From Chloroflexi bacterium RBG_16_48_8 (lineage in GTDB: Bacteria > Chloroflexota > Anaerolineae > Anaerolineales > E44-bin32), in the NCBI GenBank assembly GCA_001795115.1, contig MGNI01000093.1, positions 7,321-39,058 of the forward strand: a DNA stretch of 31,738 nucleotides. The letters run 5' to 3'. The position numbers and the translations under genes were made by a program. Shown here piece by piece: positions 7,136 through 28,576 of the stretch. A model generated the notes under the pieces. That model was not told the origin of the DNA. It was given only the letters and a program-made list of their open reading frames with translations, and did no database searches. The stretch's first letter is position 1. Each line of letters begins with the position of its first letter.

Positions 7136-8104
7136 ATGATGCGCCGTATAGCTATTTTATCTTCAGGAGGAGATGCTCCTGGAATTAACCCATGTATTCG
7201 AGCTGCTGTTCGTACCGCTCTCGATATGGGTGTTGAGGTTATTGGTATACAGGAGGGTTTTGATGGTTTGGTACGCGGTGAAATGATCCCTTTGAAGGCC
7301 AGGGATGTCGGGGGAATTTTGCAACGTGGTGGGACATTTCTGCGAACCGCCCGTTGTCCGGAATTTCTTGAGGTAAAAACCCAACGAAAAGCCTTGAGGG
7401 AGTTAAATGAGTCAGATATTGATGGGCTGATTGTAATTGGGGGAGATGGATCCTTACGTGGTGCGCATGCTCTTGCCATTCTTGGTTTTCCAGTCGTAGG
7501 TGCGCCAGCCTCCATCGACAACGATATTTGGGGAACGGACATGAGCATAGGTGTTGATACCGCCATCAATACCATCATGCATGCCATCGACAAGCTGCGC
7601 GATACCGCCTCCTCCCATGAACGTGCATTCTTGATCGAGACCATGGGAAGAAATTGTGGATATTTGGCTTTGAATGCCGGTGTAGTATGTGGTGCAGAAA
7701 TGATCCTCATCCCAGAAAAAGAAGTCTCTATGGAGGAAATCGTTCAAATGGTTGCAGGAGCGTATGATCGAGGCAAATCTCACTGCATCATTGTAGTTGC
7801 GGAGGGGTCATCATTGAAGGTTCACGACGTGGCGGAGTATCTTCGGATCAACGAAGTAGGCTTTGAAACCAGGGTGACCATATTGGGCCACATCCCCCGC
7901 GGAGGCAGCCCATCGGCTTTTGATCGGATGCTAGCCACGCGCATGGGCGTTAAGGCGGTGGAGGTGCTTAAAGCTGGAGAGACGGATTTAATGATAGGGC
8001 TCTCAGGTCGGGATATAATTACGGTGCCTTTGATAGATGTGGTCAAGCAATCCCGTAAACCCAATTTAGAATTATTGGATATGGCCAGAACTTTAGCAAA
8101 ATGA
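7136..8104 (+). CDS. pfkA: ATP-dependent 6-phosphofructokinase
   Basis: SSGGDAPGIN, GGTFLRTAR, GGDGS (Gly at the E. coli 104 position), PASIDND, ETMGR, TILGHIPRGG. Confidence 0.95.
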   Translation: MMRRIAILSSGGDAPGINPCIRAAVRTALDMGVEVIGIQEGFDGLVRGEMIPLKARDVGGILQRGGTFLRTARCPEFLEVKTQRKALRELNESDIDGLIVIGGDGSLRGAHALAILGFPVVGAPASIDNDIWGTDMSIGVDTAINTIMHAIDKLRDTASSHERAFLIETMGRNCGYLALNAGVVCGAEMILIPEKEVSMEEIVQMVAGAYDRGKSHCIIVVAEGSSLKVHDVAEYLRINEVGFETRVTILGHIPRGGSPSAFDRMLATRMGVKAVEVLKAGETDLMIGLSGRDIITVPLIDVVKQSRKPNLELLDMARTLAK

Positions 8105-8153
8105 AATGAAGGTTAAATAATCTGATATCTGAAATGTGAGTGAAGGGAAAGAG

Positions 8154-9302
8154 ATGAAAGTAGCCATTCTCACGGGCGGGGGAGACGTCCCAGGGTTGAA
8201 CGCCTGTATTAAATCTGCTGTTAGTCGTATCAGGGAAGAGGGACATGAGACTGTTGGTATACGCAGGGGTTGGGCTGGACTGCTGGAATGTCAACCTGAT
8301 GATCTAGAATCAGTAGCGAAGCATACCGTTCCGCTGGATCGAAATATCGTTCGAACGATCGATCGCACAGGAGGTACTTTCCTTCATACCTCTAGAACAA
8401 ATCCTACCAAAGTAAGTCCATCAGAGACCCCAGAATTTTTGAAGGATCGAATTGTGGGAGATGGCCTCCAGGATTTCACGGATCATGTCCTATCTGTAAT
8501 CGAGCAACTTGAGATCGATGCCCTTTTGCCGATCGGCGGTGATGACACCTTATCCTACGCTTTTCGGCTTTATCAGGAGGGGGTTCCCGTGGTCTGCATT
8601 CCCAAGACCATGGATAACGACGTTCGCGGCACGGATTATTGCATTGGATTTTCAACAGCAGTGACACGCAGTGTGAATATCATTCATAATTTGCGTACCA
8701 GTGCGGGCTCTCATGAGAGGATCGCTGTTGTCGAACTCTTTGGACGCTATAGTGGTGAAACTTCTCTTGTAGCAGCTTATTTATCGAATGTAGATCGTGC
8801 CATTATCTCCGAAGTCCCGTTCGATCCCCAGAAGCTTGCTAATTTTCTAGTGGAAGACAAACACAGCAATCCCAGCAATTACGCCATGATGACAATATCC
8901 GAGGGCGCCAAACTTATTGGCGGAGACGTTTTGGTTCGGGGCAAGGAAGATGCCTTTGGCCATAAAAAGCTGGGTGGTATCGGAGCAGTGACAGGAGATT
9001 TAATTAAAGAACTGACGGGTCAGAATATCATCTACCAACAACTTGCTTATATGATGCGTTCGGGGTCGCCCGATTCCTTGGATCTAATGGTAGCAATGAA
9101 TTTTGCCGTCATGGCAGCGGATTTGGTTATGACGCGTAGAATGGGACGAATGGTAGGATTGCGAAGTGGAATCTACACCAACGTTCCTATCACTGTCTTA
9201 CGTGAGGGCGCCCGTACTGTGGATGTGGATGAATTATATGATATCGATCAGTACCGTCCTAAGATTTGGCATGTGGATGGGAAACCCATGTTCTTGTATT
9301 AA
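8154..9302 (+). CDS. pfp: Phosphofructokinase, PPi-dependent signature
   Basis: [24 protein letters not shown] (Asp104) and PKTMDND (Lys124), ELFGR. Start is ATG 8154 or GTG 8136. Confidence 0.85.
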
Positions 9303-9320
9303 TCAGAGGATGGGATATTC

Positions 9321-9480
9321 ATCTAGGTGATTGGCTGGAAGTAATTTGACAAACAGCGAACGTATAACCTAGCCAATCACTTAAGCAAACCGCCATTCAG
9401 GCAACTCATTTTATCAAAATACTTTCGGCGGTTTGCCTAGATCAGGGTTGATCGTTCGGGGCAGGCACAGAGCCTGCCCT
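9321..9480. repeat. Cluster of three inverted repeats between convergent genes; the last is a probable bidirectional terminator or REP-like hairpin
   Basis: TAGGTGATTGGCTGG/CTAGCCAATCACTTA (9324-9338/9369-9383); GCAAACCGCC/GGCGGTTTGC (9385-9394/9427-9436); GGGCAGGC-ACAGA-GCCTGCCC (about 9459-9479). Confidence 0.7.
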
Positions 9481-9492
9481 AATTTTTCTGCG

Positions 9493-10409
9493 CTATCGAT
9501 TTCGAGAGTCGAGGCGCTTTAGGCCAACCTTTTCTGCAAGTTTGAGGGCTGCAAGGTATTCCTCACGTTTCAATGGACGATCAAAAGGGGGAAACTTCCT
9601 GGCTCGAAAGGCTGGGCGGTATTGCGGCATTACATTGAGATAGGTATTGGTGGAGATCTCTTCAGCCAGGAAACGGAAAATCTCCTCGGAACCGGCATGC
9701 CCTTCAGGTAGAACCAGGTGCCTTACCAGCAGACCACGTTGAGCAATTCCATTCGTGTCCAAGATCAAGTCTCCAACCTGTCTGTGCATTTCTCGCACAG
9801 CGGCCTTATTAACTTGAGGATAATCCTTGATCCTTGACATTCGCATTGCGATATCTGGATCGCTGTATTTCATGTCAGGCATGTAGATATCTACCACTCC
9901 GTCCAGCAAGGCAAGTGATTCGGGCGAATCATAACCGCCAGTGTTGTACACCAAAGGGAGTTTCAAACCGTACTCCACTGCCACAAGAAGAGCTTCCAGA
10001 ATCTGAGCTACGACATGGGAGGGAGGACCAGGTTGATATTATGACAGCCGACTTTCTGCAGCCAAAGCATGATCGTCGCCAATTCTTTGGGGTCCATCTC
10101 CTCCCCTGCTGGTCGTTGGCTGATGTCATGGTTCTGACAGTATTGACAGCGAAGGTTGCACCAAGAGAAGAATATCGTCCCGGAACCACGCCAACCTCTC
10201 AGTGGATTCTCCTCACCAAAATGTGGGCTATATGAAGCCACGCGCGCATTTACCTTTGTACGGCAAACTCCCACTTGTAGATTGCGGTCAACGCGACAAG
10301 TTCGAGCACAAAGATCGCAGGATCTGAGATGGTGACGAGCTTCTTCAGCACGTTGAATCAATTCGCCGCTAGCATAAAGCTTGAGATAGGCGGGTTGAAA
10401 TTCTTTCAT
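9493..10409 (-). pseudogene. pflX: PflX-like radical SAM protein (pyruvate formate-lyase activating enzyme family), split by a 1-nt frameshift near 10026
   Basis: 5' part has CDLCARTC and CNLRCQYC (CxxxCxxC) and ends NINLV; another frame continues SHVVAQILEALLVAVEYGLKLPLVYNTGGYDS...YMPDMKY...RGLLVRHLVLP. Adding one base gives V(S/T)PSHVV and about 305 aa. Confidence 0.85.
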
Positions 10410-10522
10410 GCTTTCATGAAACCAATGCTAAAAATAGCCAGGGAACCTTCTGGTTTGAAGAATGAAAAATATCTTTCCCAGCTGCTTTTTGCTTGAAGGA
10501 TGCTCTCACGAAATGTTCAGCA

Positions 10523-11287
10523 TCACGGCTGGCAGTAGTCTGGTGGATCGCCCTCATAGGTTGGTGAGATGAGAGAGCCGGTTTGGACGAAGTCTGTCCC
10601 GTCCCAGGAATGTTCTAAATATTGCCTGTTGCATGGACAGCAGTTGGGTTCATCATATAAATAGATTGATTCCTCGAAGGTGATCATATCCCCTAACTTC
10701 TGCCAATCGCCATGGACTCCATCATGGGCATATCCTTCGACCATTTCAGATCCATTCCAGGCGTAAATCTTCAATTCTAGAATCGCCCCCGATCCACTGA
10801 AGCGGATCGGCACGATCACCATATACTGACAATCACCGAAGAGGTAAGGACCAGCCGTATCTTCGATCTGTTGATTCATGGGATCCCCACCTTCCACTCT
10901 CCACACTTCTTCCCAGGCAGCACCAGTCCAATGATCGACAAAGAGGGTTTTACCAGAAGCTCCACCATCCACAAGTCTCACCCGCTGATAGGTGCCATCG
11001 CAATTGAGGCTCAATCCCTCGGGTGGAGGGGTGAAAGTAGAAGTAGGCTCGGGAGTGACGGTGGGATGCTGTGTGCCAGTGGGGATTTCGATGGGAGTTG
11101 GGGGAGTGCCTGTTGGTAAGGGTGCTTCCTGAGTGAGGGTCGCTGAAAAAGCGTCCAGCGTAGCCGCAACTGAAGTCTCTAGTTCTCCAGGTTCACTATC
11201 GCTGATGATCTTATCGAGATTACAGGCCAGGGAAGCCATTAGAAGGATTGAAAAACTTGTCAGAATGATCCGCAACCGTTTCATCAT
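10523..11287 (-). CDS. Lipoprotein with Pro/Thr linker and LppP/LprE-like Cys-rich C-terminal domain
   Basis: MKRLRIIL...MASLAC lipobox; PTGTPPTP...TPEPTSTFTPPP linker; YDEPNCCPCNRQYLEHSWDG resembles the LppP/LprE D-x-x-CCP...W-x-G motif. Confidence 0.65.
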   Translation of the reverse strand: MMKRLRIILTSFSILLMASLACNLDKIISDSEPGELETSVAATLDAFSATLTQEAPLPTGTPPTPIEIPTGTQHPTVTPEPTSTFTPPPEGLSLNCDGTYQRVRLVDGGASGKTLFVDHWTGAAWEEVWRVEGGDPMNQQIEDTAGPYLFGDCQYMVIVPIRFSGSGAILELKIYAWNGSEMVEGYAHDGVHGDWQKLGDMITFEESIYLYDEPNCCPCNRQYLEHSWDGTDFVQTGSLISPTYEGDPPDYCQP

Positions 11288-11375
11288 GGAACTCTTCTCC
11301 AATATCCGAAGCTTGTTTTCTGTTCTTCTGAAATTAGCCCCTATGGTCTAGCTGCAAATTTCCATTCGGAAGGCT

Positions 11376-13061
11376 TTAAATCCAGGTTGGTTCCTCATAA
11401 CCTCCGAAGACCTCCTTCATCACACCAATAATCTCCCCCAAAGTTGCGTAGGCTCTCACCGCTTGCAAGATATGGGGCATGAGATTCTCCGTGCCCTGGC
11501 ATGCGATCCGTAATCGATCTAAACTTTGACCGACCGCGCCGGTGTCACGTGTACGACGGAGTTCTTCTAGTCGTTCGGCTTGGCGTTGATACCCTTTTGG
11601 ATCCATTTCTAACAAGGGTATTGCAAAGTGATCTTCCCCGGCATAGGCGTTGATGCCAATACCAACCCTCACCTCAGAATCCAATTCTCTCTGGTACCGA
11701 TAGGCGGAGTCAGAGATTTCCCTTTGAAAGAACCCCGCAGAAATTGCGGGTAACACTCCACCAAGATTATCGATACGGTCGAAGTATTCACGTGCTTGTT
11801 TTTCGATGCGGTTGGTCATGGCTTCAACGAAGAAGGAACCCCCCAAGGGATCTACGGTGTTTGCTACCCCAGATTCTTCATTGATGATCTGTTGCGTCCG
11901 AAGAGCAATGGTGGCCGCATGCTGGGAGGGGAGAGCAAGAGCCTCATCCATGGAATTGGTATGCAGGGATTGAGTACCGCCGAGGACAGCCGCAAGAGCC
12001 TGCAGGGCGACTCGTACAATATTGTTTTCGGGCTGCTGGGCAGTTAGACTGACGCCAGCTGTCTGGGTATGAAAACGTAAGAGCCAGGAGCGAGGATTTT
12101 CTGCATGGAAGTTGTAGCGCATCTCATGAGCCCAGATACGACGCGCGGCGCGATATTTGGCGATCTCTTCGAAGAAATCGTTATGAGCGTTGAAGAAGAA
12201 GGAAAGTCGAGGGGCGAAGTCGTCGATATGCAGACCTCTTTCGATTGCCCAGCGGACATACTCCATGCCATCCGCCAGTGTGAAGGCAAGCTCCTGTGTG
12301 GCAGTGGATCCAGCTTCCCGTATGTGATAGCCCGATATGGAGATGGTGTTCCATTGAGGGAGGCGTTGTGTGCCATATTCGACGGTGTCCGTGACTAAAC
12401 GCATGGAAGGAGCCGGGGGGAAGATGTATTCCTTCTGAGCGATGTATTCCTTGAGGATGTCATTTTGAATGGTCCCGCGTAACTGCTTGGGCTTGATCCC
12501 CTGCTTTTCAGCTGTCGCAATGTACATGGCCCAAATCACGGCAGCCGGGGAGTTTATCGTCATGCTCGTAGAGACTTTATCCAATGGGATGCCTTCCAGA
12601 AGGATTTCCATGTCCTTGAGGGACGAGATCGCCACACCACATTTCCCAAATTCCCCCAAAGCCTCAGGAGAATCGGTATCGTAACCCATCAAGGTAGGCA
12701 GATCGAACGCAACCGAAAGTCCCGTTTGTCCTTGTTCCAGAAGATACTTGAAGCGTTCATTGGTCTCTTCAGCTGTCCCGAATCCTGCGAACATACGCAT
12801 GGTCCAGGTTTTACCTCGGTACATGGTTGGATGGATGCCGCGCATATAGGGATATTCACCTGGAAAACCTAAGTCTCTTTCAAAATCCATATCGGTGATA
12901 TCAAGGGGTGTGTAAAGTCTATGGATGGGTTCAGAGGAAGTTGTGATGAAGCTTTCTTTGCGTTCCTTCCCGCTGGAAAGGGATGGTTGCAGGGTTGTTT
13001 CCTCCCACTGCTGAAGCTTCTGCCGTAGTTCTTCTAACTTGGATAAACTGAACATCTGCAT
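11376..13061 (-). CDS. B12-dependent acyl-CoA mutase large (substrate-binding) subunit, isobutyryl-CoA mutase-type residues
   Basis: [78 protein letters not shown]. No DxHxxG cobalamin-binding domain. Start 13061 or 13055. Confidence 0.9.
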
Positions 13062-13083
13062 CTCCCACCGGAACTTCGAGGGA

Positions 13084-13094
13084 ATTATAGCATG
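13084..13094 (-). promoter_or_regulatory. Extended -10 promoter for the mutase gene
   Basis: Minus strand CATGCTATAAT (TG-n-TATAAT), about 23 nt upstream of the start. Confidence 0.6.
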
Positions 13095-13235
13095 GGGGCG
13101 ATTTTGGCGATGATCCTTGCCTCAGGTCGAAATTGGAGGATTCATATGGTTCTTATTTACCAAGTATGTAACTAAAAAAATCAATTTTCTGAGAGTGAAA
13201 ACCTGCTGACTGTGGACTCGGGGAGTCGAGGCGTT

Positions 13236-13796
13236 TTATTCTTTTCTCTCAGTTTTCGAGAAGTCATCGTCCTCATAGCTACGAAGACTACGCAGAAATG
13301 CTAGGGTCGCAGCGACGACGACCTGGCCCCCCGCAATTGTGCGGTCGGCGAGTTGCCGAGCGCGGGCGAGACGGATTTGTGGCTCCTGTATTGTGGGCTC
13401 GTAGAGTTCAATCAGGACACCGTGTGTGCTCTGAGGGTGGATGAAAGCAACAAGCTTCCCACCTGCACCGATGACAGGCTCCTCGTTGATGAGTCGCACT
13501 CCCTGACCCTTCAGATGATCCAGATATGTAACGATGTCATCCACTTCGAAGCAGATATGATGCAGTCCAGGTCCATGTTTCTTAAGGAAACGACCCACTC
13601 CCGTTTCTTCGCCCGTCGGTTTAACCAGCTCGATTTCAGCCTCGCCGGCTGGTAAGAATGCCGTAACAGCTTTCTGCTCCTCCAAATCCTCGACATGGGT
13701 AACTTTCATGCCCAACCCATCCCGCCAAAATCGAAGGGCGGGTTCGATATCGTCAACAATAATGGCAACGTGGTTGATTTTTTTCAGTGCTGTCAT
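13236..13796 (-). CDS. mce: Methylmalonyl-CoA epimerase (VOC fold) with ~53-aa C-terminal extension
   Basis: INHVAIIV, IELVKP, GPGLHHICFEVDDI, AFIHPQSTHGVLIELYE; RBS GAGGA upstream. Confidence 0.9.
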   Translation of the reverse strand: MTALKKINHVAIIVDDIEPALRFWRDGLGMKVTHVEDLEEQKAVTAFLPAGEAEIELVKPTGEETGVGRFLKKHGPGLHHICFEVDDIVTYLDHLKGQGVRLINEEPVIGAGGKLVAFIHPQSTHGVLIELYEPTIQEPQIRLARARQLADRTIAGGQVVVAATLAFLRSLRSYEDDDFSKTERKE

Positions 13797-13866: not shown

Positions 13867-14114
13867 CCAATATGTTGCGGGAATTCTTTGTTTAGATTAT
13901 GGATCCTTTAGATGGAGTCCACCCCAGATGGCATTCTCTATCTGCTCGCTTTCTAATTTGCGTATCTTTTTAAAAGATCCTGTGTAGTCTTCGTCTCAGG
14001 CTTGTTAAGAAAGAACCCTAAGACTCCGTGTAGCAGTCGGAATTGGACCACTGGATCGGGTTTTGGGTCCAGGATTCTATTTGCGATTTCAACAACTTTT
14101 TGTCTTTTGTTCAT
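13867..14114 (-). pseudogene. Decayed 5' fragment of a gene of uncertain family
   Basis: ATG overlaps the upstream stop (ATGA coupling); [33 protein letters not shown]; after a frame change KIRKLESEQIENAIWGGLHLKDP*SKQRIPAT. Confidence 0.5.
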
Positions 14115-14785
14115 GTCACAGAGCGCTGTCTCTCCCTCAACCATCCGACCAAGGGGGGAACCCAGCAGAGGTTGGAGGCTATGGTCTCCAGGGCTGTGAG
14201 CAATTGAGTCGATGGGCTGAATCCCACCGTTCGTGCGAAGAACAACCCCAATGGCACAAGAAAAATAACGGCTACCCCAGCAATCATGACTGGATGTCTG
14301 ATATACTCGGCGAAGGCCTTTTTCCAGGATCCCGATCTTCTTCGGAGATGGATTAAACCCGAGAGGTTGCCCCCAATTTGGTCTGACATGGCGTAAAAAT
14401 AAGGGATATAAAAACCTTCTACTCCATATACATCAACACCAAAGAGTCGACTGCCCCAGTCAATCCACCATGGGATCGTCATCCCAAGAAGTTTGCCCCA
14501 GCCATAGGCCTCAACCATCCCTATTTTGGATTGGCTGAAACGTTTTTTAATGGCATATAATCCCTCCAGGATGCTTTCCCCTTCGCCTGAAAGTGTGCGA
14601 ACCAGCCATTGACCAACCGCACTCGTTTGGAAACCAAAGCTATCCAGACCCAAACCAAGGATCAAACCACCTAGGTAACCTGTGAGGGTATAACGAAGGA
14701 GCTCGCTGAATTCTTCTTGCTCTTCCACCTCGTCTTCTATACGTTCCAATTCATCAGACTCATTGTTATCTTCTTCACCCATCAT
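14111..14785 (-). CDS. Uncharacterised membrane protein with acidic N-terminus
   Basis: Long ORF; likely start [10 protein letters not shown] (14785/14782); several Gly-rich hydrophobic segments; position within the operon. Confidence 0.7.
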
Positions 14786-14832
14786 GGTTTGCCCTTTTTG
14801 GGGTTGTATTGTCATTGGTGGTATTCCCATTT

Positions 14833-15669
14833 CTAAGGATGAACCGTCCCGGTCATCCATTGAAGGGCATATTGGAGAACCTGATCTTTTTCGGGCTCAT
14901 TGTGGATTTCGTGATATTGACCTTCCCAGATTTTCAAGGTGCATCTACCCTCTGCTTTTTGCTGATACTCCCTGCTGGCTTGAGGAGAACATAATCTGTC
15001 ATCACTCCCATGCATGAGTAAGGCTGGAACCCTCAATCTTGAAGCGTTTTCCAACAACCATAAGCCTTCTTCAATCATCTCGATCCCTAAGCGCGCCGAT
15101 ACACGGTCATGCACCATGGGATCGGAATGATAGGCATGAACGACTTGCGGATCGCGTGAAAGACCATCCTGGTCCAGGCCGTTGGACATAGCCATCGTCG
15201 GCCATAGGTTGCGCATCATCCTGCCGAGGGTTAATTTCCATCCCGGGGGATCAAAACCAGGCCGAAGCAACGGTCCTGTGGCAATCACACCACTTATTTG
15301 GGGATGCAACCGTGCGCAGTAACTCAATACCAGGGTGCCGCCCAGACTGTGCCCGTACAAAAAAATGGGAGAGTCAGGGACCCGCTTTTGAGCTTCTTCC
15401 ACTTGCTTGGAGATATCCTCTCGAAGCGCATCCATGCTGGGTGTATGTCCTCGCTGACCTTCCGATTTCCCATGTCCCCGCATGTCGGCCGCGAGGAAAG
15501 CATACCCGCCCGCGCTGAGAAATTCTCCCACGTGGGTATATCGACCGATATGTTCTCCAAGACCGTGAACCAAGCAGACCGTTCCTTTCACAGTACCCTC
15601 AGGTTTCCAGTATCTCGCGTATATATTAAGGTTATCCTTGGAATTCCATTCAAGCTCATTGTAGGTCAT
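14833..15669 (-). CDS. Alpha/beta hydrolase, lysophospholipase / monoacylglycerol lipase family
   Basis: [21 protein letters not shown], nucleophile [19 protein letters not shown]; start ATG 15669 after GGAGG. Confidence 0.9.
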
Positions 15670-15866
15670 TTTTCCCTCCGCTTTTTTGATATGTTGGTTC
15701 AGATTATCCATTTAACCTAGTACTTGGTGTCATTTTGAGTCTACAGCATTGAGAACGATTGAATTCAAGGTCAGATTCGTTGAGAAGTAGAAGGTGAGCA
15801 AGTTCATCCGCCTGGGCTATGGATTAATTAGCATCATTCAACTGTTGATGATTGGCCAGCATCCAT

Positions 15867-16784
15867 TCATTCTACTTTGCGACGCATGAGTTCGCTCGCA
15901 TAGTGTTGACCGAGGGAGTATGCATTTTCTTCCGCCCAAGTCGTTAATTGGGTATGACCCGTGGGTGGCGAATAGACATGAAGCAGGTCGGCCATCAATC
16001 CCTGCACCTCAGGCCAAGTGATCATAACATCCTTCGCAAACTTGCCAATGATCCACCCGGTCAGGAATGCTATTCGTGCTGGCATGGGGATAATCGGTCG
16101 GGATTTGCCGATGATCCTCCCGATTTTATTCACCCATTCTCGGTAAGTGAAGGTTTCTGGGCCTATGGCGTTAACAATGACATTCTCTCCCTTCTGACCA
16201 TGCTCCACAGCCAATTTTGCCAAATCATCTACATAGATGGGCTGAAGTCGATACTTCCCATCACCAAAGAGCCCAAAAATGGGAAATCGGCGTAGGGTCC
16301 AGGCGATGTTGTTGATCAGGATGTCCTCTTTGCCAAATAGAACGGTGGGTCGAAGGATGGCATAGGATATACCTGACTGGATGATCTCCTGTTCCAAGAT
16401 CGCTTTACCGGCGAAGTATTCTAAAGGGGAATCTATGGAAGGATTGGTGATACTGATGTGCACAATTCGTTGGACGCCGGAATCCTTAGCGGCTGATATC
16501 AGCTTTCGTGTATTTTCAACAGCAAGAGTGTGCCCAAAAGCCTTATAGTTGAACCGGATCCAATAGGTGTTGTAAAGGACTTCTACACCCTTCAGAGAAT
16601 TTCTCAGTTTATCGGGTTGGCCATAATTGAAAGGGAAGGCTCTCACGCTTTCGCCAAAGGGATTCTCTCGGTGAAGTGAATTAGTCAATGTGATCACTTC
16701 TTTCCCGGCGAGCAGTAATCGAGTGGCGATGTATTTCCCCGAGTAACCGAAGGCTCCTGTTACTGCGTGAATCTCAGACACCAT
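15867..16784 (-). CDS. NAD(P)-binding atypical SDR (NDUFA9 / epimerase-like)
   Basis: VTGAFGYSGKYIA Rossmann motif; YFAGK, ILRPTVLFG, QPIYVDDLA, GPETFTY. Confidence 0.85.
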   Translation of the reverse strand: MVSEIHAVTGAFGYSGKYIATRLLLAGKEVITLTNSLHRENPFGESVRAFPFNYGQPDKLRNSLKGVEVLYNTYWIRFNYKAFGHTLAVENTRKLISAAKDSGVQRIVHISITNPSIDSPLEYFAGKAILEQEIIQSGISYAILRPTVLFGKEDILINNIAWTLRRFPIFGLFGDGKYRLQPIYVDDLAKLAVEHGQKGENVIVNAIGPETFTYREWVNKIGRIIGKSRPIIPMPARIAFLTGWIIGKFAKDVMITWPEVQGLMADLLHVYSPPTGHTQLTTWAEENAYSLGQHYASELMRRKVE

Positions 16785-16791
16785 TCAAGAC

Positions 16792-18453
16792 CTAAAGGAT
16801 CGGGGGCGCTTCATATTCTCCCCAGATTTCTCGAAGTTGCGTACAAATTTCTCCCAAAGTGAGATGCCCTTCGATACACTCAATAAAACTTGGGATCAGG
16901 TTACCGTCTCCCCTGGCGGTTTCAGTGAGGTTATTGAGAAGTTGTTTGGCCTGATTCTCATTCCGTTGTGAACGAAAAACCATAAGTTGCTCCTTCTGGG
17001 AAGCTTCCACAACCGGATCGACTTTTAGAGGGGTGATGGTGATTTTTTCATCCGTCATGAAGTCATTCACACCTACGACAATTTCCTCGGCATTGTCAAT
17101 CGCCCTCTGCATCTGAAACGCCGATTCAGAAATCTCACGCTGGATAAATCCAATCTCGATGGCAGTTAACGCGCCACCGAGGTGATCAATTCTTTCGATA
17201 TATTCTAGCACGCCCGCCTCAATGGCATCTGTGAGTGATTCGATGGCATAAGACCCTGCCAGGGGGTCGATGGTATCTCCTACGCCCGTTTCGTGGGCGA
17301 TGATCTGCTGGGTGCGTAAAGCGATCCGAACTGCAGTTTCTGTGGGCAAGCCTAAGGCTTCATCCATACTGTTGGTGTGGAGAGATTGCGTGCCGCCGAA
17401 AACAGCAGATAATGCTTGGAGCGCCACACGGATGACATTGTTCTCGGGTTGCTGAGCGGTGAGGCTGGAGCCTGCGGTTTGGGTGTGGAATCGCAACCTC
17501 CAGGATCTCGGATCCTCGGCTCCGAAGCGATTTCGCATGATGTCAGCCCAAAGACGTCTGGCTGCTCGGAACTTTGCGATCTCTTCCAGGAAATTGCGAT
17601 CCGCGCTGAAGAAGAAAGCCAATCGGGGGGCAAAATCATCGATTTTGAGACCAGCCTTCAGTGCTGCTTCCACATAGGCGATGGCATTTGCGAAGGTGAA
17701 GGCGACCTCTTGAATGGCGCTCGCTCCTGCCTCACGAATATGGTAACCGGAGATGGAGATGATGTTCCAATGAGGGAGCTTTTCCTGGCAGTAGTGGAAA
17801 GTGTCGGTTACAAGGCGGATGGAGGGCTTAGGAGGGAAGATGTAGGTGCCTCGTGCGACATATTCCTTCAGAATATCATTTTGGATTGTACCGCGCAGCT
17901 CCTCGAGCTTCACTCCTTGGCGTTTTGCAACCGCGACATACATGGCTAAAAGGATAGCTGCAGGTGCATTGATGGTCATGCTTGTGGATACGCGATCTAA
18001 AGGGATCCCTTCGAAAAGCCGTGCCATGTCCTCGAATGATGAGAGGGACACTCCAACCCTGCCAACCTCGCCTTCAGCAAGGGGATGATCAGGATCTAAC
18101 CCGATTTGTGTGGGTAGGTCAAAAGCCACGGATAAACCTGTTTGCCCTTGCTCTAGAAGGTATCGGAAGCGCCGATTGGTCTCCTCAGCTGTAGCATATC
18201 CTGCATACTGTCGTATGGTCCATAACCGACCGCGATACATGGTCGGCTGGACTCCGCGCGTGAAGGGATACTCTCCCGGGAAGCCAAGTTTGTCGAGATA
18301 ATCAGGATCCGAATCAGTCGGTAGGTAACATCGCTTTATGGGAATCCCTGAGGACGTCTGGAAGGTTTTCTTGCGCTCTGGGAAACGTTTTAATAGATGG
18401 GATAAGGTCTTCTCTTCCCATTCCGCATAGGCATCCCCAATGGATTGTGTCAT
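16792..18453 (-). CDS. mcmA: Methylmalonyl-CoA mutase large (substrate-binding) subunit
   Basis: [63 protein letters not shown]. No B12-binding domain. Start ATG 18453 after GGAGTG. Confidence 0.92.
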
Positions 18454-18458
18454 GCTGT

Positions 18459-19085
18459 TCACTCCGATGAAGAGTCACTCTGAAACCCGTCCTGAAGGCC
18501 CAGATCCTCAGGCACGATCTTTCCAACTTGTGAGAAAGCTTCAAATGTGGCATCCGTAAAGGGTAAATTGATTTTTCTCCTTATCCGTTCAAAGATCCCA
18601 AGGTAAGTAGAGGATAACCGAAGGTCCCATTTTAGATGCAAATCCCTGCAAGCTTGTCGTATGGACTCAATTGAAGGTCCTTCGATTTCTACAAAACTGC
18701 CGTAGGGTACTTCGTCCAGGACGACTTCCACTTGACCAAATTCAAAGGTTTCTCGGTACTTCTCGTAGATAAAGAAGACTTTGTAACCCAAGGCCTCCAG
18801 GAACATTTTTATTTTTTCACTATCGTCAACTTCGAGTTCGATTTCCAATCGTTCCAGAGTTCCTTGGATAGGCCGTTTGTATGTGAGGCGGATGCGACGG
18901 TCCTCCCGAATTCGCAGCACTTCACCACTTGCGGTTAATCTCCCATCGGGTGTGTCGAATCTCCAATTGCGTTCGAGGATGCGTTCATCAGTCAAATTCG
19001 CTCCAAGGGAGCTTAACTTTGTTCGCAATGGCTCCAAGTCACCCAGATAAAACTTAGCTTCAATTTCGATGTTCTTCGTATTCAT
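18459..19085 (-). CDS. CYTH / triphosphate tunnel metalloenzyme (class IV adenylate cyclase-like)
   Basis: EIEAKF (ExExK), [37 protein letters not shown]. Confidence 0.88.
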
Positions 19086-19086
19086 T

Positions 19087-19584
19087 TCAGCCCACGGTCA
19101 GGAGGACTTGGTGATGCTCAACGTTATCCCCCGACTTGACTCTTAGACTTCGAATAATGCCATCCCGTGGGGATTTGAGTTCGTTTTGCATTTTCATTGA
19201 CTCAAGGATGATCATTCGATCCCCCCGGGCGACTTCTTGACCTTCTCTTACGCTTACGGAGATGATGAGACCGGGCATGGGCGATTTCAAATGAAACTCG
19301 CCCCGCTCGGTGAGTTGGGGTCCTGATGTTTGTCGTAATCTGCGTTGTCTTTCATCGTCAACGGATATCAAAAATAGTTGGCCCTGGAGGAGGACTTCTG
19401 AACCCTCCTCAGAGAGCTGAACCAAGGCCTCATAGGAGCGACCATTGATGAGAAGGGAATAGACAGGTTGACCGGCAATAGAACGAAAGTCGATGGCATA
19501 ACGTTCCCCATCTACGATGATTTCGTCTTCTCCGTTGATTTCGATCTCAACTTCCTGACCACCTAAGGAAGCAACATATTTCAT
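19087..19584 (-). CDS. accB: Biotin carboxyl carrier protein with N-terminal extension
   Basis: KSPMPGLII...ILESMKMQNELKSPRDG biotinyl-Lys motif (ESMKM variant of EAMKM). Confidence 0.9.
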   Translation of the reverse strand: MKYVASLGGQEVEIEINGEDEIIVDGERYAIDFRSIAGQPVYSLLINGRSYEALVQLSEEGSEVLLQGQLFLISVDDERQRRLRQTSGPQLTERGEFHLKSPMPGLIISVSVREGQEVARGDRMIILESMKMQNELKSPRDGIIRSLRVKSGDNVEHHQVLLTVG

Positions 19585-19639
19585 AAGAGTCTCCCTGTAT
19601 TAAGCGGAGGTTGTAGGACCCGCAAATCAAATCGAATTT

Positions 19640-21148
19640 TCAGCGGTTCACCCTTTCCCAGCGACCCAACCATTTCCAATTGCTGGTATCCCTTTCGGAT
19701 TTTCGGAAGATTTGGGAGGCCTTTTGATGATGGCGATGTTCAACCAATGTAGCCATGATGGCGGCTATTTTGGCTAATTCTTCTTTTCCTTCTTCGGAAT
19801 TGTTCATGGAAAATCGCTCTTCCACGAAGCGTGTATCAAATTGACCCGCCATAAATCGATGCGATGCAATAATGTTCTGGTGGAAGGGGATGTTGGTTTT
19901 AACACCCAGGATGCGATACTCTTCCAGTGCACGGCGCATACGTAGGATGGCTTCTCCCCGGGTTTCGCCCCAGCAGATCAGCTTTGAGATGAGGGAATCG
20001 TAAAAGGGTGAAATGGCAAAGCCGGCATAAATTCCAGTGTCCACCCGGATGCCCGGTCCAGTGGGAAGGATGCTTTGTGTGATTATCCCTGTGGAGGGAA
20101 GGAAAGAATTGTAGGGATCCTCTGCGTTAATGCGACATTCTATCGCCCATCCTTTCAATCGAATATCCTCTTGGCTGGAACGTAATTTACGACCTCGCGC
20201 AATACGAATCTGTTCTTTCACAATGTCGATCCCGGTAACCATTTCCGTAACGGGATGTTCAACCTGGAGACGAGTATTCATCTCAAGAAAATAAAACTTC
20301 TGATCCTTGTCGACAAGGAATTCAATTGTTCCTGCATTCAAGTAATCGACCGCTTGTGCGGCTTTGCAAGCGACCTCTCCCATCCTTTGTCTTAATTCCT
20401 CGTCCAAGAAGGGAGAGGGGGATTCTTCCAGTAATTTTTGATGTCTGCGTTGGAGAGAGCACTCACGTTCACCTAGATGGATGACGTTACCGTGTTCATC
20501 GGCTAAGATTTGGAACTCAATATGCCTAACATCTAACAGCAGCTTCTCTAAGTAAACATTTCCATCTCCAAAGGCTGCTTCAGCCTCTCGACGTGCGGCT
20601 GAGATGAGGTTGGGGAGTTCCTCAATATTTTGAACCTCCCTCATCCCTTTCCCTCCGCCTCCCGCTGTAGCTTTAATCAACAATGGAAATCCGATTTGAG
20701 GGGCGACAGCGATGATTTCCTCATCTGTGAGGTTTCCTTCGCCTTCGGTGCCTGGGACGACTGGAACACCAGCCGCGGTCACTGTCGCACGGGCGACAGC
20801 TTTATCGCCCATAGCAGTAATCGCGCTGGGTCGAGGCCCAATGAAGATCAAACCAGCTTCTTCTACCTGCAAGGCAAAGTCATCGCGCTCTGCAAGGAAA
20901 CCGTAGCCGGGGTGGATAGCCCCAGCACCGCAGGTTTTTGCGATCTGAATGATTTTGTCGCCTCTCAGGTAGGACTCGCGGGATGGAGAAGGACCTAAAT
21001 AGTAGGCTTCCTCCGCATAACGTACATGCAGGGATTCTCGATCCGCCTCTGAAAAAACGGCCACCGGGATTAAACCAAGCTCGCGGCAGGCGCGGATGAT
21101 CCGGACAGCAATTTCCCCACGATTGGCGATCAGGACTTTATTAAACAT
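19640..21148 (-). CDS. accC: Biotin carboxylase subunit of acyl-CoA carboxylase
   Basis: [70 protein letters not shown]. Confidence 0.95.
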
Positions 21149-21974
21149 TTTCTCTCTCTGATCCAGTTGCCTTCAAGGAAGTCGATGGAGTGAGATTTTC
21201 TTGAAGAAATTGAATCATTCGATGATTGAATTCGTCGGCAATCTCTTGGGGAGGCATGTGACCAACCTCTGGGATGAGCCATAAAAAAGCCTCCCTGATT
21301 CCTTTAGCGATATCCTTGGCATGTTGGGGCGTGGCATGTTCATCTCTTTCCCCTTGAACCACAAAGGTAGGGCAAATCACACTTGCTAATTCCTTTATCA
21401 AATCGAGTGTCTGGGAGCCATGCTCGATCCAGCAATCGAGCCAGGATTGAACCAGGGTTTTTGCCCTTGAGCCATGCTCTCGTTCTAATGCTGTACTGAA
21501 CGGGGGTTCCTGTGAAGCCATCCGGATAAGCCGTAATCCTGTAACCATCTTGGGTTCCACATAGATGTGTGCAGCAATGAGTATTAGGTTTCGTATGAGT
21601 TTCGGGTGCCGTGCGGCCAGGATGATGGCTATCGTGCCTCCATCACTGTGCCCTATCAGTGAGGTCTGTTCGACTCCCAGAGTTCTAAGGAGCGATTCGG
21701 CTTCTTCAGCCTCATGATGGAGGAAATGAGCCTCAAAGGCAGGACGGGGGTCGGAGCGACCGTACCCCCAGCGATCATAGACCACAACATTGTATCCCTG
21801 TTCGACAAGCGTGGGGATCTGTCTCTTCCATGAGCGGATGGATCCGAGCCCGTGGTGCAAGAGTACAACGCTTGGGCCTGCTTCGGGACCGTAGCATTCC
21901 CAATAGTCGTCATGATCGTTAAGATTTGTGTGCCCGGTCAATCTCGGTGAAGGGCAGGTCGTTTTTTTTATCAT
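21141..21974 (-). CDS. Alpha/beta hydrolase (GHSDGG nucleophile elbow)
   Basis: [33 protein letters not shown]. Start uncertain; ATG 21974 lies just after the pccB stop. Confidence 0.85.
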
Positions 21975-21984
21975 GATGTTCTCA

Positions 21985-23535
21985 TCAGAGCGGGATGTTG
22001 CCATGTTTTTTCGCCGGGTTGCGATCACGTTTGTTGGAGAGCATTTCCAAGGCGTTGATCAACCTGGGGCGTGTCAGTCTTGGCTCGATGACATCGTCAA
22101 TATAGCCGCGCGAGGCAGCGATATATGGATTGGCGAATTTCTCTCGGTACTCAGCCACCAATTCCGCTCTTCGTTGATCAGGGTTTGGGGATTCCTCCAA
22201 TTCCTTTCGGAAGATGATGTTGACCGCACCTTCAGGTCCCATCACGGCTAGTTCGGCACTTGGCCAGGCTAAATTGAGATCGCCCCGAATATGCTTCGAG
22301 GACATAACATCGTAGGCACCACCATAGGCTTTGCGTGTGATGATGGTAATCTTGGGCACGGTTGCTTCACAAAATGCGTACAGGAGTTTGGCACCGTGTC
22401 GGATGATCCCATGATGTTCTTGAGATGTGCCCGGGAGGAAACCTGGCACATCCACGAAAGTGATGATGGGAATATTGAATGAGTCGCAAAATCGCACGAA
22501 GCGAGCAGCTTTATCAGAGGAATTGATGTCCAATACCCCGGCTAACACAGCTGGTTGGTTGGCTACAATCCCAACGCTATGCCCGCCCAAGCGTGCAAAC
22601 CCCACAACGATGTTAGGCGCGTAGTGTTCATGAATTTCGAAAAAAGCTCCGTTATCGACGATCATTCGGATGGCATCCCGTATCTCATATGGCTTACTTG
22701 GATCATCCGGCACGATGGTGTCTAACCTTTCTTCTGTTCGCAGCCGATCATCTGTTGTCGCAGCAAAGGGGGGATCCTCGAGATTGTTTTGGGGTAGGTA
22801 AGAGAGGAGGGTGCGGATCATGTACAGGCAGTCTGATTCATTATCCGCTACGTAATGGCATACTCCGGAAGTGCTTCCATGAACATCGGCACCACCCAAC
22901 TCTTCGAAATCCACCTCCTCATGTGTGACCGTTTTCACCACATCTGGTCCGGTGACGAACATATAAGAAGAGTTTCGGACCATGAAGATGAAGTCCGTCA
23001 GGGCTGGGGAATAAACAGCACCGCCTGCACAGGGACCCATCACAGCGCTGATCTGGGGGATAACACCGGAGGCCAAGGTATTGCGGAGGAAGATATCTGC
23101 ATAGGCGCCAAGTGAAACGACCCCCTCTTGAATCCTCGCGCCGCCCGAATCGTTCAAACCGATGATCGGTGCGCCATTTTTAAGGGCCATATCCATGATC
23201 TTGCATACCTTCTCGGCATGAACCTCACCTAAACTCCCACCGAATACAGTGAAATCCTGTGAAAAGACATAGATCAGGCGTCCGTCAATCGTCCCCCAAC
23301 CAGTGACAACACTATCACTGAGGACTTTCCGTTGATCAAGGTTAAAGTCATAGGTGCGATGGGTGACGAACATATCTGTTTCACGAAAAGAACCATTATC
23401 GAGTAATAGATCGATACGCTCCCGAGCTGTCAAGCGGCCGCGTTTGTGCTGGACTTCAATCCTTTCCGGGCCTCCTCCCAACACTGCCTCTTGACGCTTT
23501 TTTTGAAGTTGCTCGATTTTGGAGGAGTCACTCAT
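21985..23535 (-). CDS. pccB: Acyl-CoA (propionyl/methylmalonyl-CoA) carboxyltransferase beta subunit
   Basis: [69 protein letters not shown]. Confidence 0.95.
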
Positions 23536-27340: not shown

Positions 27341-28528
27341 TCATCGCAAGCCGAGTTCCAAACGTGAAATGACCAAACGCTGAATTTCGCTGGTTCCTTC
27401 GTAGATTTCCGTGATCTTGGCATCCCGGAAATAACGCTCAATCGGAAGTTCCTTGGAGTATCCCATGCCTCCATGGATTTGAACTGCAGCGTGGGCGCAG
27501 AACATAGCCGTTTCTGAAGCGTAGAGTTTGGCCATGGAGGCTTCCAGGGTATAGCGAGCTCCTGTGACTTTGGACTTTTCTTTAGCAAGTGCTGCTTGAT
27601 AAATCAGGAGCCTACTGGCTTCGATACGGGTTTTCATATCGGCTAATTTAAACGAAATTCCCTGGAACTCACCAATTTTTTGACCAAAAGCCTCCCGTTG
27701 GCGTGCGTACTCAATGCTAGCTTCATATGCGGCCTCGGCGATTCCGAGAGCCTGGGAGGCGATTCCAATGCGACCCGCGTCAAGGACAACCATCGCAATT
27801 TTAAAGCCTTGACCCTCATCACTCAATCGGTTCTCCACAGGACATCGATAATTTTCCAGAAGGATCTCGCTTGTTCCAGATGCACGGATACCCAGTTTCG
27901 GCTCGGTCTTGCCTCGGCTGAAACCGGGTTGATCAGTCTCAACGATAAAGGCAGTAATGCCTCGATGCATTTTCTCGGGATCCGTCATCGAGAAGACAAT
28001 AATGTAATCGGCGTAGGGTGCACTGCTGACCCAGGATTTCCGTCCGTTCAGGACATATTCATCCCCTTCCAACACCGCTCGTGAGCGCATTGTAGCAGCA
28101 TCTGAACCGGACATGGGTTCGGTAAGGGAGTAAGCACCTACGCATTTCCCTGAAGCCACTGGGAGAAGGAATTTGGCCTTCTGTTCCTCTGTGCCGAATC
28201 GATAGATGGCATGACAAAAAAGCGAGTTGTTTACCGACATAATGGTGCCGTGAGCTGCATCTGCTTTACAAATCTCCTCAAGGGCGAGGACATAGGAAAG
28301 GGTATCCAGCCCTGCACCACCATATTCTTCAGGAATCTCAATTCCCATGAAACCCATCTCGCCCATTTTCCGTATGCTGTTGATAGGAAAATCCCCGCTC
28401 TCATCGAACTCGGTGGCGATTGGTACGAGTTCGTTTTGTGCGAAATCACGAGCAGCCTGACGGATCATTTCATGTTCGGAGGTGAGAGTGAGGTTGGGGC
28501 CAGCATTGGATCCTTCTGTAATAACCAT
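27341..28528 (-). CDS. Acyl-CoA dehydrogenase (short/branched-chain type)
   Basis: PEEYGGAG, YSLTEPMSGSDA, LNGRKSW, KLGIRAS, LDAGRIGIA, REAFGQKI, HGGMGY, ITEIYEGTSEIQR (catalytic Glu); RBS AGGAGG. Confidence 0.95.
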   Translation of the reverse strand: MVITEGSNAGPNLTLTSEHEMIRQAARDFAQNELVPIATEFDESGDFPINSIRKMGEMGFMGIEIPEEYGGAGLDTLSYVLALEEICKADAAHGTIMSVNNSLFCHAIYRFGTEEQKAKFLLPVASGKCVGAYSLTEPMSGSDAATMRSRAVLEGDEYVLNGRKSWVSSAPYADYIIVFSMTDPEKMHRGITAFIVETDQPGFSRGKTEPKLGIRASGTSEILLENYRCPVENRLSDEGQGFKIAMVVLDAGRIGIASQALGIAEAAYEASIEYARQREAFGQKIGEFQGISFKLADMKTRIEASRLLIYQAALAKEKSKVTGARYTLEASMAKLYASETAMFCAHAAVQIHGGMGYSKELPIERYFRDAKITEIYEGTSEIQRLVISRLELGLR

Positions 28529-28565: not shown

Positions 28566-28576
28566 ATTATAGCATG
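28566..28576 (-). promoter_or_regulatory. Extended -10 promoter for the acyl-CoA dehydrogenase
   Basis: Minus strand CATGCTATAAT, about 38 nt upstream of the ATG. Confidence 0.6.

What the first reader, a model, noticed from the sequence alone, without database searches (positions are those of the whole stretch)
11376..13061. Second B12-mutase large subunit has isobutyryl-CoA mutase specificity residues (Phe/Gln)
Seen: WTMRM-F-AGF (Phe codon 12789-12791) and KEYIA-Q-KE (Gln codon 12435-12437); the paralogue at 16792-18453 has RQ-Y-AG (18205-18207) and KEYVA-R-GT (17851-17853). Known: Tyr89/Arg207 (P. shermanii MCM numbering) bind the methylmalonyl carboxylate, and isobutyryl-CoA mutases (IcmA/IcmF) carry Phe/Gln. 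Inference: likely to be mis-annotated as MCM; it probably interconverts n-butyryl- and isobutyryl-CoA (or related branched acyl-CoAs), feeding valine- or lipid-derived carbon into fermentation. It has its own extended -10 promoter.
Basis: partly seen in the sequence, partly recalled or inferred. Interest (0 to 1): 0.65.

Follow-up and report, generated by a model that had tools for sequence, protein, structure and literature searches.

The report
Mislabelled isobutyryl-CoA-type B12 mutase subunit
This gene, labelled methylmalonyl-CoA mutase in databases, is the catalytic subunit of a vitamin-B12 enzyme whose active site matches isobutyryl-CoA mutase. That is a known enzyme type, and here it appears to share its B12-binding partner and chaperone with the genuine methylmalonyl-CoA mutase encoded nearby.

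Summary
The ORF at 11376-13061 (minus strand; the likelier start is 13055) is a 559/561-aa split acyl-CoA mutase large subunit. It has Phe (12789-12791) and Gln (12435-12437) exactly where P. shermanii MCM has Tyr89 and Arg207. The paralogue at 16792-18462 keeps Tyr/Arg.

The Phe/Gln protein is not a recent specificity switch. It belongs to an old, widespread Phe/Gln clade found in Chloroflexota, Acidobacteriota, Ignavibacteria, Bathyarchaeia and others. In a tree this clade lies on the same side as curated IcmF sequences and apart from all Tyr/Arg proteins. Sources name it 'methylmalonyl-CoA mutase (family protein)'. The best reading is an IcmA-type isobutyryl-CoA mutase, interconverting butyryl-CoA and isobutyryl-CoA. 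This is a new member of a known kind and an annotation correction. The scan has noted the same signature on other DNA many times.

One added result concerns partners. Of 71 Anaerolineae genomes, 44 carry a Phe/Gln-type large subunit plus at least one more, and 39 of those have a single B12-binding small subunit. Every one of the 63 mutase-bearing genomes has a single MeaB. In relatives one operon reads MCM-large, epimerase, ICM-large, small, MeaB. The two enzymes therefore probably share one cofactor subunit and one chaperone. Activity, sharing and the proposed promoter are untested.

The parts
11376..13061 (-). Phe/Gln-type (IcmA-like) acyl-CoA mutase large subunit. It is 561 aa from ATG 13061 and 559 aa from the likelier ATG 13055.
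   Evidence: the AF2 model has pLDDT 93.6.
12789..12791 (-). TTC, Phe91 (Phe89 counted from the 13055 start), at the MCM Tyr89 position.
12435..12437 (-). CAG, Gln209 (Gln207 counted from the 13055 start), at the MCM Arg207 position.
12429..12434 (-). Lys210-Glu211 (AQKE). These are secondary positions typical of the Phe/Gln clade; Tyr/Arg proteins have G/N then T here.
12690..12692 (-). Leu124 (DLPTLMG), typical of the Phe/Gln clade; Tyr/Arg proteins have Gln or His here.
12324..12329 (-). Tyr245-His246 (GYH), aligned with the SISGYH motif of MCM 1REQ_A; by my recollection these are catalytic Tyr243/His244. They are conserved.
13084..13092 (-). TGCTATAAT, an extended -10-like motif about 20-30 nt upstream of the start codons.
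   Evidence: consensus match only.
13062..13069 (-). GGTGGGAG, a ribosome-binding site that favours the ATG at 13055.
13236..13796 (-). Methylmalonyl-CoA epimerase, the gene immediately upstream.
   Evidence: TIGR03081 at 150 bits, above the 115-bit cut-off.
16792..18462 (-). Tyr/Arg-type (MCM) split large subunit, the paralogue.
19087..23535 (-). BCCP (19087-19584), biotin carboxylase (19640-21148), an alpha/beta hydrolase (21141-22028) and a carboxyltransferase (21985-23535). This is a propionyl-CoA carboxylase-type module of the same minus-strand cluster.
27341..28528 (-). Short-chain acyl-CoA dehydrogenase, preceded by the window's only other TGCTATAAT (28566-28574).

Best explanation
The gene encodes the substrate-binding (large, IcmA-type) subunit of an adenosylcobalamin-dependent isobutyryl-CoA mutase. 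The hydrophobic Phe and neutral Gln replace the Tyr/Arg pair that holds the carboxylate of methylmalonyl-CoA. The enzyme should therefore accept an uncharged C4 acyl-CoA and interconvert n-butyryl-CoA and isobutyryl-CoA by the usual 5'-deoxyadenosyl-radical 1,2-shift. To work it must bind a separate ~140-aa B12-binding subunit (DxHxxG). The genome holds just one, at G000:C37, translationally coupled to its one MeaB GTPase. The same small subunit and chaperone are therefore inferred to serve both this enzyme and the Tyr/Arg (MCM) large subunit 3.7 kb away. Shown here: residue identity and alignment, clade membership, conserved catalytic residues, and copy numbers across genomes. Inferred: substrate, activity, physical sharing of the small subunit, and physiological role (linking valine- or isobutyrate-derived isobutyryl-CoA with butyryl-CoA and beta-oxidation, or supplying iso-branched primers).
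For: - Residues: Phe and Gln align to Tyr89/Arg207 of 1REQ_A and to the Phe/Gln of an IcmF scoring 1812 bits against the NF045497 equivalog cut-off of 1500.
- Other active-site motifs: GYH, TIQND, HTQT and HTNS-DEA are conserved.
- Relatives: all 120 closest database proteins and all 80 related genomic loci (60-76% identity, many phyla) carry Phe/Gln.
- Trees: in a 196-sequence tree all 97 Phe/Gln rows plus one other form one clade (support 98). The paralogue P0002 lies in a separate Tyr/Arg clade. With IcmF added, all Tyr/Arg and other-signature rows but one fall on one side of a branch (support 93), and Phe/Gln plus IcmF fall on the other.
- Clade-typical residues: P0001 also has L124, K210 and E211.
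- Typical ICM operons elsewhere: in other phyla the Phe/Gln gene is followed directly by its own small subunit, often with MeaB and an acyl-CoA dehydrogenase.
- Own genome: 2 large subunits, 1 mutase-type small subunit and 1 MeaB.
- Class survey of 71 Anaerolineae genomes: 63 have large subunits, and the same 63 have a small subunit and exactly one MeaB. 44 have a Phe/Gln-type subunit plus another large subunit, and 39 of these have exactly one small subunit.
- Closed or single-contig genomes show the same 2:1 ratio (G001, G016, G115).
- Operon in an Anaerolinea sp. relative (L044): carboxyltransferase, biotin carboxylase, Tyr/Arg large, epimerase, Phe/Gln large, small, MeaB, with 5-75 nt gaps.
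- Small subunits from Tyr/Arg-only, Phe/Gln-only and two-large genomes are intermixed in a tree and 74-87% identical.
Against: - No biochemical data exist for any member of this split Phe/Gln subclade from Chloroflexota.
- The closest reviewed or solved enzyme is HcmA (49% identity), not an ICM. IcmF is only 33-37% identical.
- The characterised S. cinnamonensis IcmA could not be fetched, so it is missing from the tree.
- The Chloroflexota subclade has Met or Leu instead of Gln just before the Phe (RMF versus RQF), and the effect is unknown.
- The gene lies in a propionyl-CoA/methylmalonyl-CoA cluster right after the epimerase, which on its face suggests MCM-related chemistry.
- Sharing of the small subunit rests on gene counts. 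The genomes are related to each other, and most are incomplete MAGs.
Confidence: 0.78

Rival explanations
1. It is an acyl-CoA mutase for another uncharged substrate, with butyryl/isobutyryl-CoA as a side activity at most. Candidates are isovaleryl/pivalyl-CoA, 3-hydroxybutyryl/2-hydroxyisobutyryl-CoA, or an undescribed branched acyl-CoA.
For: The best PDB and Swiss-Prot match is 2-hydroxyisobutyryl-CoA mutase HcmA (575 bits, 49% identity). The Chloroflexota subclade carries Met/Leu instead of Gln next to the Phe. IcmF, which also has Phe/Gln, also converts pivalyl/isovaleryl-CoA (PMC10481361). The family holds dozens of unexplored signatures.
Against: HcmA's Ile90 and Asp117 are not present; the protein has Phe91 and Ala118 in GLSVAFD. 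The reviewed pivalyl-CoA mutase large subunit A7IQE5 is only 36% identical. Residue 90 alternates with Phe91 on a beta-strand, so it probably points away from the pocket; this is an inference.
Confidence: 0.13
2. The annotation is right: it is a second methylmalonyl-CoA mutase isoenzyme.
For: It is 58% identical to the Tyr/Arg paralogue. It lies in the propionyl-CoA carboxylase/epimerase/MCM cluster. It scores 640 bits on the MCM model NF006944.
Against: That score is below the model's 876-bit cut-off. Both carboxylate-binding residues are replaced in every clade member. Jost et al. 2015, as cited in PMC7238569, treat these two sites as the specificity determinants.
Confidence: 0.04
3. It is a catalytically silent structural partner of the Tyr/Arg large subunit, like MutA in the P. 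shermanii alpha-beta MCM. That would explain why only one small subunit exists.
For: The 2 large: 1 small ratio holds across Anaerolineae, and both large subunits sit in one operon in relatives.
Against: The catalytic and CoA-binding motifs are fully conserved. The same clade occurs alone with its own small subunit in other phyla and as the only large subunit in four Anaerolineae genomes. MutA-type chains are only 20-27% identical.
Confidence: 0.03

Closest known systems
Two-subunit isobutyryl-CoA mutase IcmA/IcmB of Streptomyces cinnamonensis (EC 5.4.99.13)
   Same: It shares the split architecture: a ~560-aa large subunit without a B12 domain plus a ~140-aa DxHxxG small subunit. It also shares Phe/Gln at the MCM Tyr89/Arg207 positions. 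The Phe80/Gln198 numbering for IcmA is from my own knowledge. The two-site rule is cited from Jost et al. 2015 via PMC7238569.
   Different: No dedicated small subunit is apparent. The genome's single small subunit and MeaB are encoded on another contig and are apparently shared with MCM. The subclade has Met instead of Gln before the Phe.
IcmF, the fused isobutyryl-CoA mutase (Cupriavidus metallidurans, Geobacillus kaustophilus; PDB 4XC6)
   Same: The Phe and Gln align. It falls on the same side of the tree as the split Phe/Gln clade. It uses the same AdoCbl radical chemistry and also depends on a MeaB-type G-protein function.
   Different: IcmF is one ~1090-aa chain (B12 domain, G domain, substrate domain) and only 33-37% identical. 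It is rare in this phylum, found in 2 of 201 genomes.
2-hydroxyisobutyryl-CoA mutase HcmA/HcmB (Aquincola tertiaricarbonis; PDB 4R3U)
   Same: It is the best solved and reviewed match (575 bits, 49% identity, TM 0.98). It has the same split architecture and shares the AQKEY motif with Gln at the Arg207 position.
   Different: HcmA has Ile90 and Asp117, whereas this protein has Phe and Ala.
Methylmalonyl-CoA mutase (P. shermanii MutB, human MMUT, and the window's own paralogue at 16792-18462)
   Same: It has the same fold and catalytic residues, is 42-48% identical to reviewed MCMs and 58% to the paralogue, and lies in the same gene cluster.
   Different: Tyr89 is replaced by Phe and Arg207 by Gln, so the carboxylate-binding pair is lost.

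Membership tests
Isobutyryl-CoA mutase (IcmA/IcmB, IcmF) | Phe at the position of MCM Tyr89 | tested here: met
   Alignment to 1REQ_A and to an IcmF equivalog; the codon is TTC at 12789-12791.
Isobutyryl-CoA mutase (IcmA/IcmB, IcmF) | Gln at the position of MCM Arg207 | tested here: met
   the codon is CAG at 12435-12437.
Isobutyryl-CoA mutase (IcmA/IcmB, IcmF) | Conserved mutase catalytic and CoA-binding residues (Tyr243/His244, the Gln197 region, HTQT, HTNS-DEA) | tested here: met
Isobutyryl-CoA mutase (IcmA/IcmB, IcmF) | Groups in a tree with other Phe/Gln mutases, including IcmF, and not with Tyr/Arg proteins | tested here: met
   FastTree gives a clade of 98 rows (97 Phe/Gln) with support 98. 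The IQ-TREE quick tree with IcmF splits Tyr/Arg and nearly all other-signature rows from Phe/Gln plus IcmF with SH-aLRT 93. IcmF sits on a long branch.
Isobutyryl-CoA mutase (IcmA/IcmB, IcmF) | A B12-binding small subunit (DxHxxG) and a MeaB-type chaperone available | tested here: met
   One of each lies at G000:C37. The small-subunit gene is interrupted by an N run in the assembly. Neither is dedicated to this large subunit.
Isobutyryl-CoA mutase (IcmA/IcmB, IcmF) | Orthology to the biochemically characterised S. cinnamonensis IcmA | not testable with these tools
   IcmA is not among the reviewed AFDB entries returned. A Streptomyces genome could not be reached.
Isobutyryl-CoA mutase (IcmA/IcmB, IcmF) | AdoCbl-dependent interconversion of butyryl-CoA and isobutyryl-CoA | not testable with these tools
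   This needs an enzyme assay.
Methylmalonyl-CoA mutase | Tyr89 and Arg207 binding the substrate carboxylate | tested here: not met
   The residues are Phe and Gln. The NF006944 score of 640 bits is below the 876-bit cut-off.
2-hydroxyisobutyryl-CoA mutase (HcmA) | Ile90 and Asp117 (with Gln208) | tested here: not met
   The protein has Phe91 and Ala118 in GLSVAFD; only the Gln is shared.
Pivalyl-CoA mutase (PCM) | Close similarity to the reviewed PCM large subunit and its pocket residues | tested here: inconclusive
   Identity to A7IQE5 is only 36%. The PCM pocket residues could not be checked because the paper is not held.

The most novel reading that the evidence does not exclude
In Anaerolineae a single B12-binding small subunit and a single MeaB chaperone form a common module. 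This module docks onto either of two large subunits with different substrate pockets, MCM-type Tyr/Arg and ICM-type Phe/Gln. One cofactor-loaded subunit would then be partitioned between the propionate/succinate and butyrate/isobutyrate rearrangements. This would explain operons of the form MCM-large, epimerase, ICM-large, small, MeaB.
Probability: 0.55. Interest if true: 0.6.

Novelty: new member of a known kind. Interest (0 to 1): 0.38.

Why it matters
Metabolic reconstructions of Anaerolineae and many other uncultured lineages count this gene as a second methylmalonyl-CoA mutase. Reading it as isobutyryl-CoA mutase adds a butyrate/isobutyrate isomerisation step. That step is relevant to valine and branched-chain fatty acid turnover in soils, sediments and digesters, and it removes a spurious MCM duplicate. 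If the single small subunit and MeaB do serve both large subunits, this would be a simple natural case of one cofactor-carrying subunit shared by two radical enzymes. It would be useful for studying B12 allocation and for engineering split mutases.

Tried and rejected
- **Recent specificity switch:** rejected. The Phe/Gln clade is old and spans many phyla, and P0002 belongs to a separate Tyr/Arg clade.
- **Other discriminating positions:** at strict thresholds only the two defining sites separate the groups. Relaxed thresholds add L124, K210 and E211.
- **Shared operator between the mutase and ACAD upstream regions:** they share only CATGCTATAAT and a loose GAAAATT, which is not enough.
- **B12 riboswitch or other RNA:** Rfam gave no hit in the window.
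- **Anchoring to S. cinnamonensis IcmA:** Swiss-Prot AFDB does not list it, cluster look-ups gave no informative names, and the Streptomyces sp. AV19 genome is not held.
- **Key JBC papers** (Cracan 2010 and 2012, Yaneva 2012, Jost 2015, Vrijbloed 1999) are not held. The residue rule is therefore cited second-hand from PMC7238569.
- **P0210 as a route to an IcmF alignment:** this failed, because P0210 is a Phe/Gln large subunit fused to a B12 domain and is closer to MCM and HcmA chains.
- **Valine-catabolism context in the genome:** only partly found. MMSDH is above its cut-off, HIBADH-like genes are below theirs, and there is no clear 3-hydroxyisobutyryl-CoA hydrolase. The pathway role stays open.

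Full report
**What is in the sequence.** The window is contig C93 of an 86%-complete Anaerolineales MAG. The ORF at 11376-13061 on the minus strand translates to 561 aa containing WTMRMFAGF and KEYIAQKE. The paralogue at 16792-18462 has WTIRQYAGY and KEYVARGT. Both proteins consist only of the MM_CoA_mutase barrel (PF01642; TIGR00641 at about 770 bits) and lack a B12-binding domain, so both are 'split' large subunits. They are 58% identical.

phmmer against PDB chains aligns the Phe with Tyr89 and the Gln with Arg207 of P. shermanii MCM (1REQ_A). The [19 protein letters not shown] and HTNSxDEA motifs are conserved. The RBS GGTGGGAG abuts the first ATG and lies 6 nt before the ATG at 13055, and databases hold a 559-aa form. 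The true start is therefore probably 13055, which makes the residues Phe89/Gln207.

**The promoter claim.** TGCTATAAT is present at 13084-13092. It is a consensus match only: 2 in the window against 0.76 expected, with 18 of 100 shuffles doing as well. There is no matching -35 element. The only other copy sits in the same position upstream of the short-chain acyl-CoA dehydrogenase at 27341-28528. No RNA data set holds this sequence.

**Which family it belongs to.** All 120 closest database proteins (79-100% identity, Anaerolineales metagenomes) carry Phe/Gln. So do all 80 related loci found in species genomes (60-76% identity). These come from Chloroflexota, Acidobacteriota, Ignavibacteria, Bacteroidota, Planctomycetota, Bathyarchaeia and Thermoplasmatota.

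I built a tree of 196 mutase domains drawn from a 50%-identity representative library plus these loci. All 97 Phe/Gln rows, plus one Leu-Ala/Gln row, form one clade with support 98. P0002 lies in a separate Tyr/Arg clade.

Two IcmF proteins from the same phylum pass the curated NF045497 equivalog cut-off (1807 and 1812 bits against 1500). They align their Phe and Gln with those of P0001. In an IQ-TREE quick tree, all Tyr/Arg and nearly all other-signature rows fall on one side of a branch (SH-aLRT 93), and the Phe/Gln rows plus IcmF (with one other-signature row, P0187) on the other. IcmF sits on a long branch, so this placement is moderate evidence only.

At strict thresholds, only the two defining sites separate Phe/Gln from Tyr/Arg proteins. 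Relaxed thresholds add Leu124, Lys210 and Glu211, and P0001 has all three. The Phe/Gln pair is therefore an ancient, lineage-defining feature and not a recent change in a duplicated MCM.

That these two sites determine specificity in acyl-CoA mutases is the conclusion of Jost et al. 2015, as cited in PMC7238569. The S. cinnamonensis numbering Phe80/Gln198 is from my own knowledge.

**What it is not.**
- **MCM:** the carboxylate-binding pair is absent, and the NF006944 score of 640 bits is below the 876-bit cut-off.
- **HCM:** HcmA (4R3U) is the best solved and reviewed match (575 bits, 49% identity, TM 0.98). However, its Ile90 and Asp117 are Phe and Ala here.
- **PCM and ECM:** the reviewed pivalyl-CoA mutase large subunit is 36% identical and ethylmalonyl-CoA mutases are 36-37% identical.
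- **MutA-like silent partner:** unlikely, because the catalytic residues are conserved and the clade works alone elsewhere.

**One lineage peculiarity.** A subclade made up mainly of Chloroflexota has Met or Leu instead of Gln just before the Phe (RMF/RLF versus RQF). In the AF2 model (pLDDT 93.6) residues 87-89 and 91 are strand. Residue 90 should therefore face away from the pocket that Phe91 lines. This is an inference, because no coordinates could be inspected.

**Surroundings.** All the following genes are on the minus strand:
- short-chain acyl-CoA dehydrogenase (27341-28528)
- Zn-ADH/enoyl-reductase-like protein (23929-24960)
- carboxyltransferase (21985-23535)
- alpha/beta hydrolase (21141-22028)
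- biotin carboxylase (19640-21148)
- BCCP (19087-19584)
- CYTH protein (18459-19085)
- Tyr/Arg large subunit (16792-18462)
- NmrA-like protein (15867-16784)
- hydrolase_4 (14833-15711)
- unknown protein (14111-14860)
- methylmalonyl-CoA epimerase (13236-13796)
- Phe/Gln large subunit (11376-13061)

The order Tyr/Arg-large, epimerase, Phe/Gln-large recurs in other Anaerolineae (L019, L028, L031, L044).

**The partner subunit.** The whole genome has only these two PF01642 genes. It has one mutase-type small subunit (TIGR00640, DGHDRG motif, interrupted by an N run) and one MeaB that overlaps its stop. Both are on contig C37.

To test whether this reflects MAG incompleteness, I surveyed 71 Anaerolineae genomes.
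- 63 have large subunits. Exactly these 63 have a small subunit and exactly one MeaB, always adjacent to the small subunit. The other 8 have none of the three.
- 48 genomes have a hit at least 67% identical to P0001. The four of these that have no other large subunit all read Phe/Gln when fetched.
- All 11 sampled second hits (56-63% identity) and all 15 other single-copy hits read Tyr/Arg.
- Of the 44 genomes with a Phe/Gln-type subunit plus at least one more large subunit, 39 have exactly one small subunit.
- In four of the five exceptions the extra small subunit lies on the same contig as a third, more distant Tyr/Arg-type large subunit (47-48% identity), directly beside it in two of them. 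The three extra small subunits that were sampled form their own clade (99*).

Closed or single-contig genomes show the same 2:1 ratio of large to small subunits: G001 (Aggregatilineales SYSU G02658), G016, and G115 of the same order.

In many genomes the small subunit gene follows the Phe/Gln gene directly. In Anaerolinea sp. L044 the genes run carboxyltransferase, biotin carboxylase, Tyr/Arg-large (7851-9494), epimerase (9499-9942), Phe/Gln-large (10001-11680), small (11755-12225) and MeaB (12222-13256).

Small subunits from Tyr/Arg-only, Phe/Gln-only and two-large genomes are intermixed in a tree and 74-87% identical. There is thus no separate 'IcmB-type' and 'McmB-type' partner in this class.

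The simplest reading is that one small subunit and one chaperone serve both large subunits. Three caveats apply. The genomes are related and not independent. Most are MAGs. The four Phe/Gln-only genomes are 90-97% complete. I found no paper describing such sharing in the held library.

**Likely role.** The genome encodes a methylmalonate-semialdehyde dehydrogenase above its cut-off and 3-hydroxyisobutyrate-dehydrogenase-like genes below theirs. No clear 3-hydroxyisobutyryl-CoA hydrolase was found. A full route from isobutyryl-CoA to propionyl-CoA is therefore not established.

Butyrate/isobutyrate isomerisation by a B12 mutase is known in anaerobes (Matthies and Schink 1992, as cited in PMC7764203). 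The papers in the held library that mention both isobutyryl-CoA mutase and Anaerolinea or Chloroflexi, so far as I read them, do not assign the enzyme to this group.

I read the clustering with MCM genes as reflecting the shared small subunit and chaperone at least as much as a shared pathway. This is an inference.

**Verdict.** The gene is a new member of the known isobutyryl-CoA mutase kind, systematically labelled as MCM. The same signature has been noted by this scan on many other genomes. The shared small-subunit/MeaB arrangement is the only part with some novelty, and it needs biochemical proof.

Noticed in passing
window 9493-10409 (-): A radical-SAM-like ORF (CNLRCQYC motif) stops after 133 aa, and the rest of the reading frame continues in another frame (ORF 9493-9984). 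This is either a frameshifted gene or an assembly error.
   Followed up: partly
window 28566-28574 (-): The only other TGCTATAAT in the window lies just upstream of the short-chain acyl-CoA dehydrogenase start. The two upstream regions share CATGCTATAAT.
   Followed up: partly
G000:C37 (L010 1027-2469): The genome's only mutase small-subunit gene is interrupted by a run of N. It overlaps the start of MeaB and is followed by a PRPP synthetase gene.
   Followed up: partly
window 18459-19085 (-); L019 about 6383: A CYTH-domain gene is wedged between BCCP and the Tyr/Arg mutase. It is also present at the same place in at least one relative (L019).
   Followed up: no
proteins P0125-P0274: The representative library holds dozens of other residue pairs at the Tyr89/Arg207 positions (Val/Val, Ile/Glu, Leu/Thr, Val/Gly and more). 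Many acyl-CoA mutase types therefore have unknown substrates.
   Followed up: no
proteins P0170, P0210: These are 887-913-aa Phe/Gln proteins. In P0210 the large subunit is fused to a C-terminal B12-binding domain with no G domain between them, an MCM-like architecture with an ICM-type pocket; P0170 was not examined.
   Followed up: partly
G015:C52, G043:C47, G021:C707, G053:C26, G058: Some Anaerolineae carry a third, more distant Tyr/Arg-type large subunit (YIGRG motif, 47-48% identical to P0001), and these five genomes have a second small subunit.
   Followed up: partly
window 7136-9302 (+): Two phosphofructokinase-family genes lie near the mutase. Earlier notes of the scan report the same Phe/Gln (RMF) mutase next to a PPi-type PFK in other genomes.
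   Followed up: no
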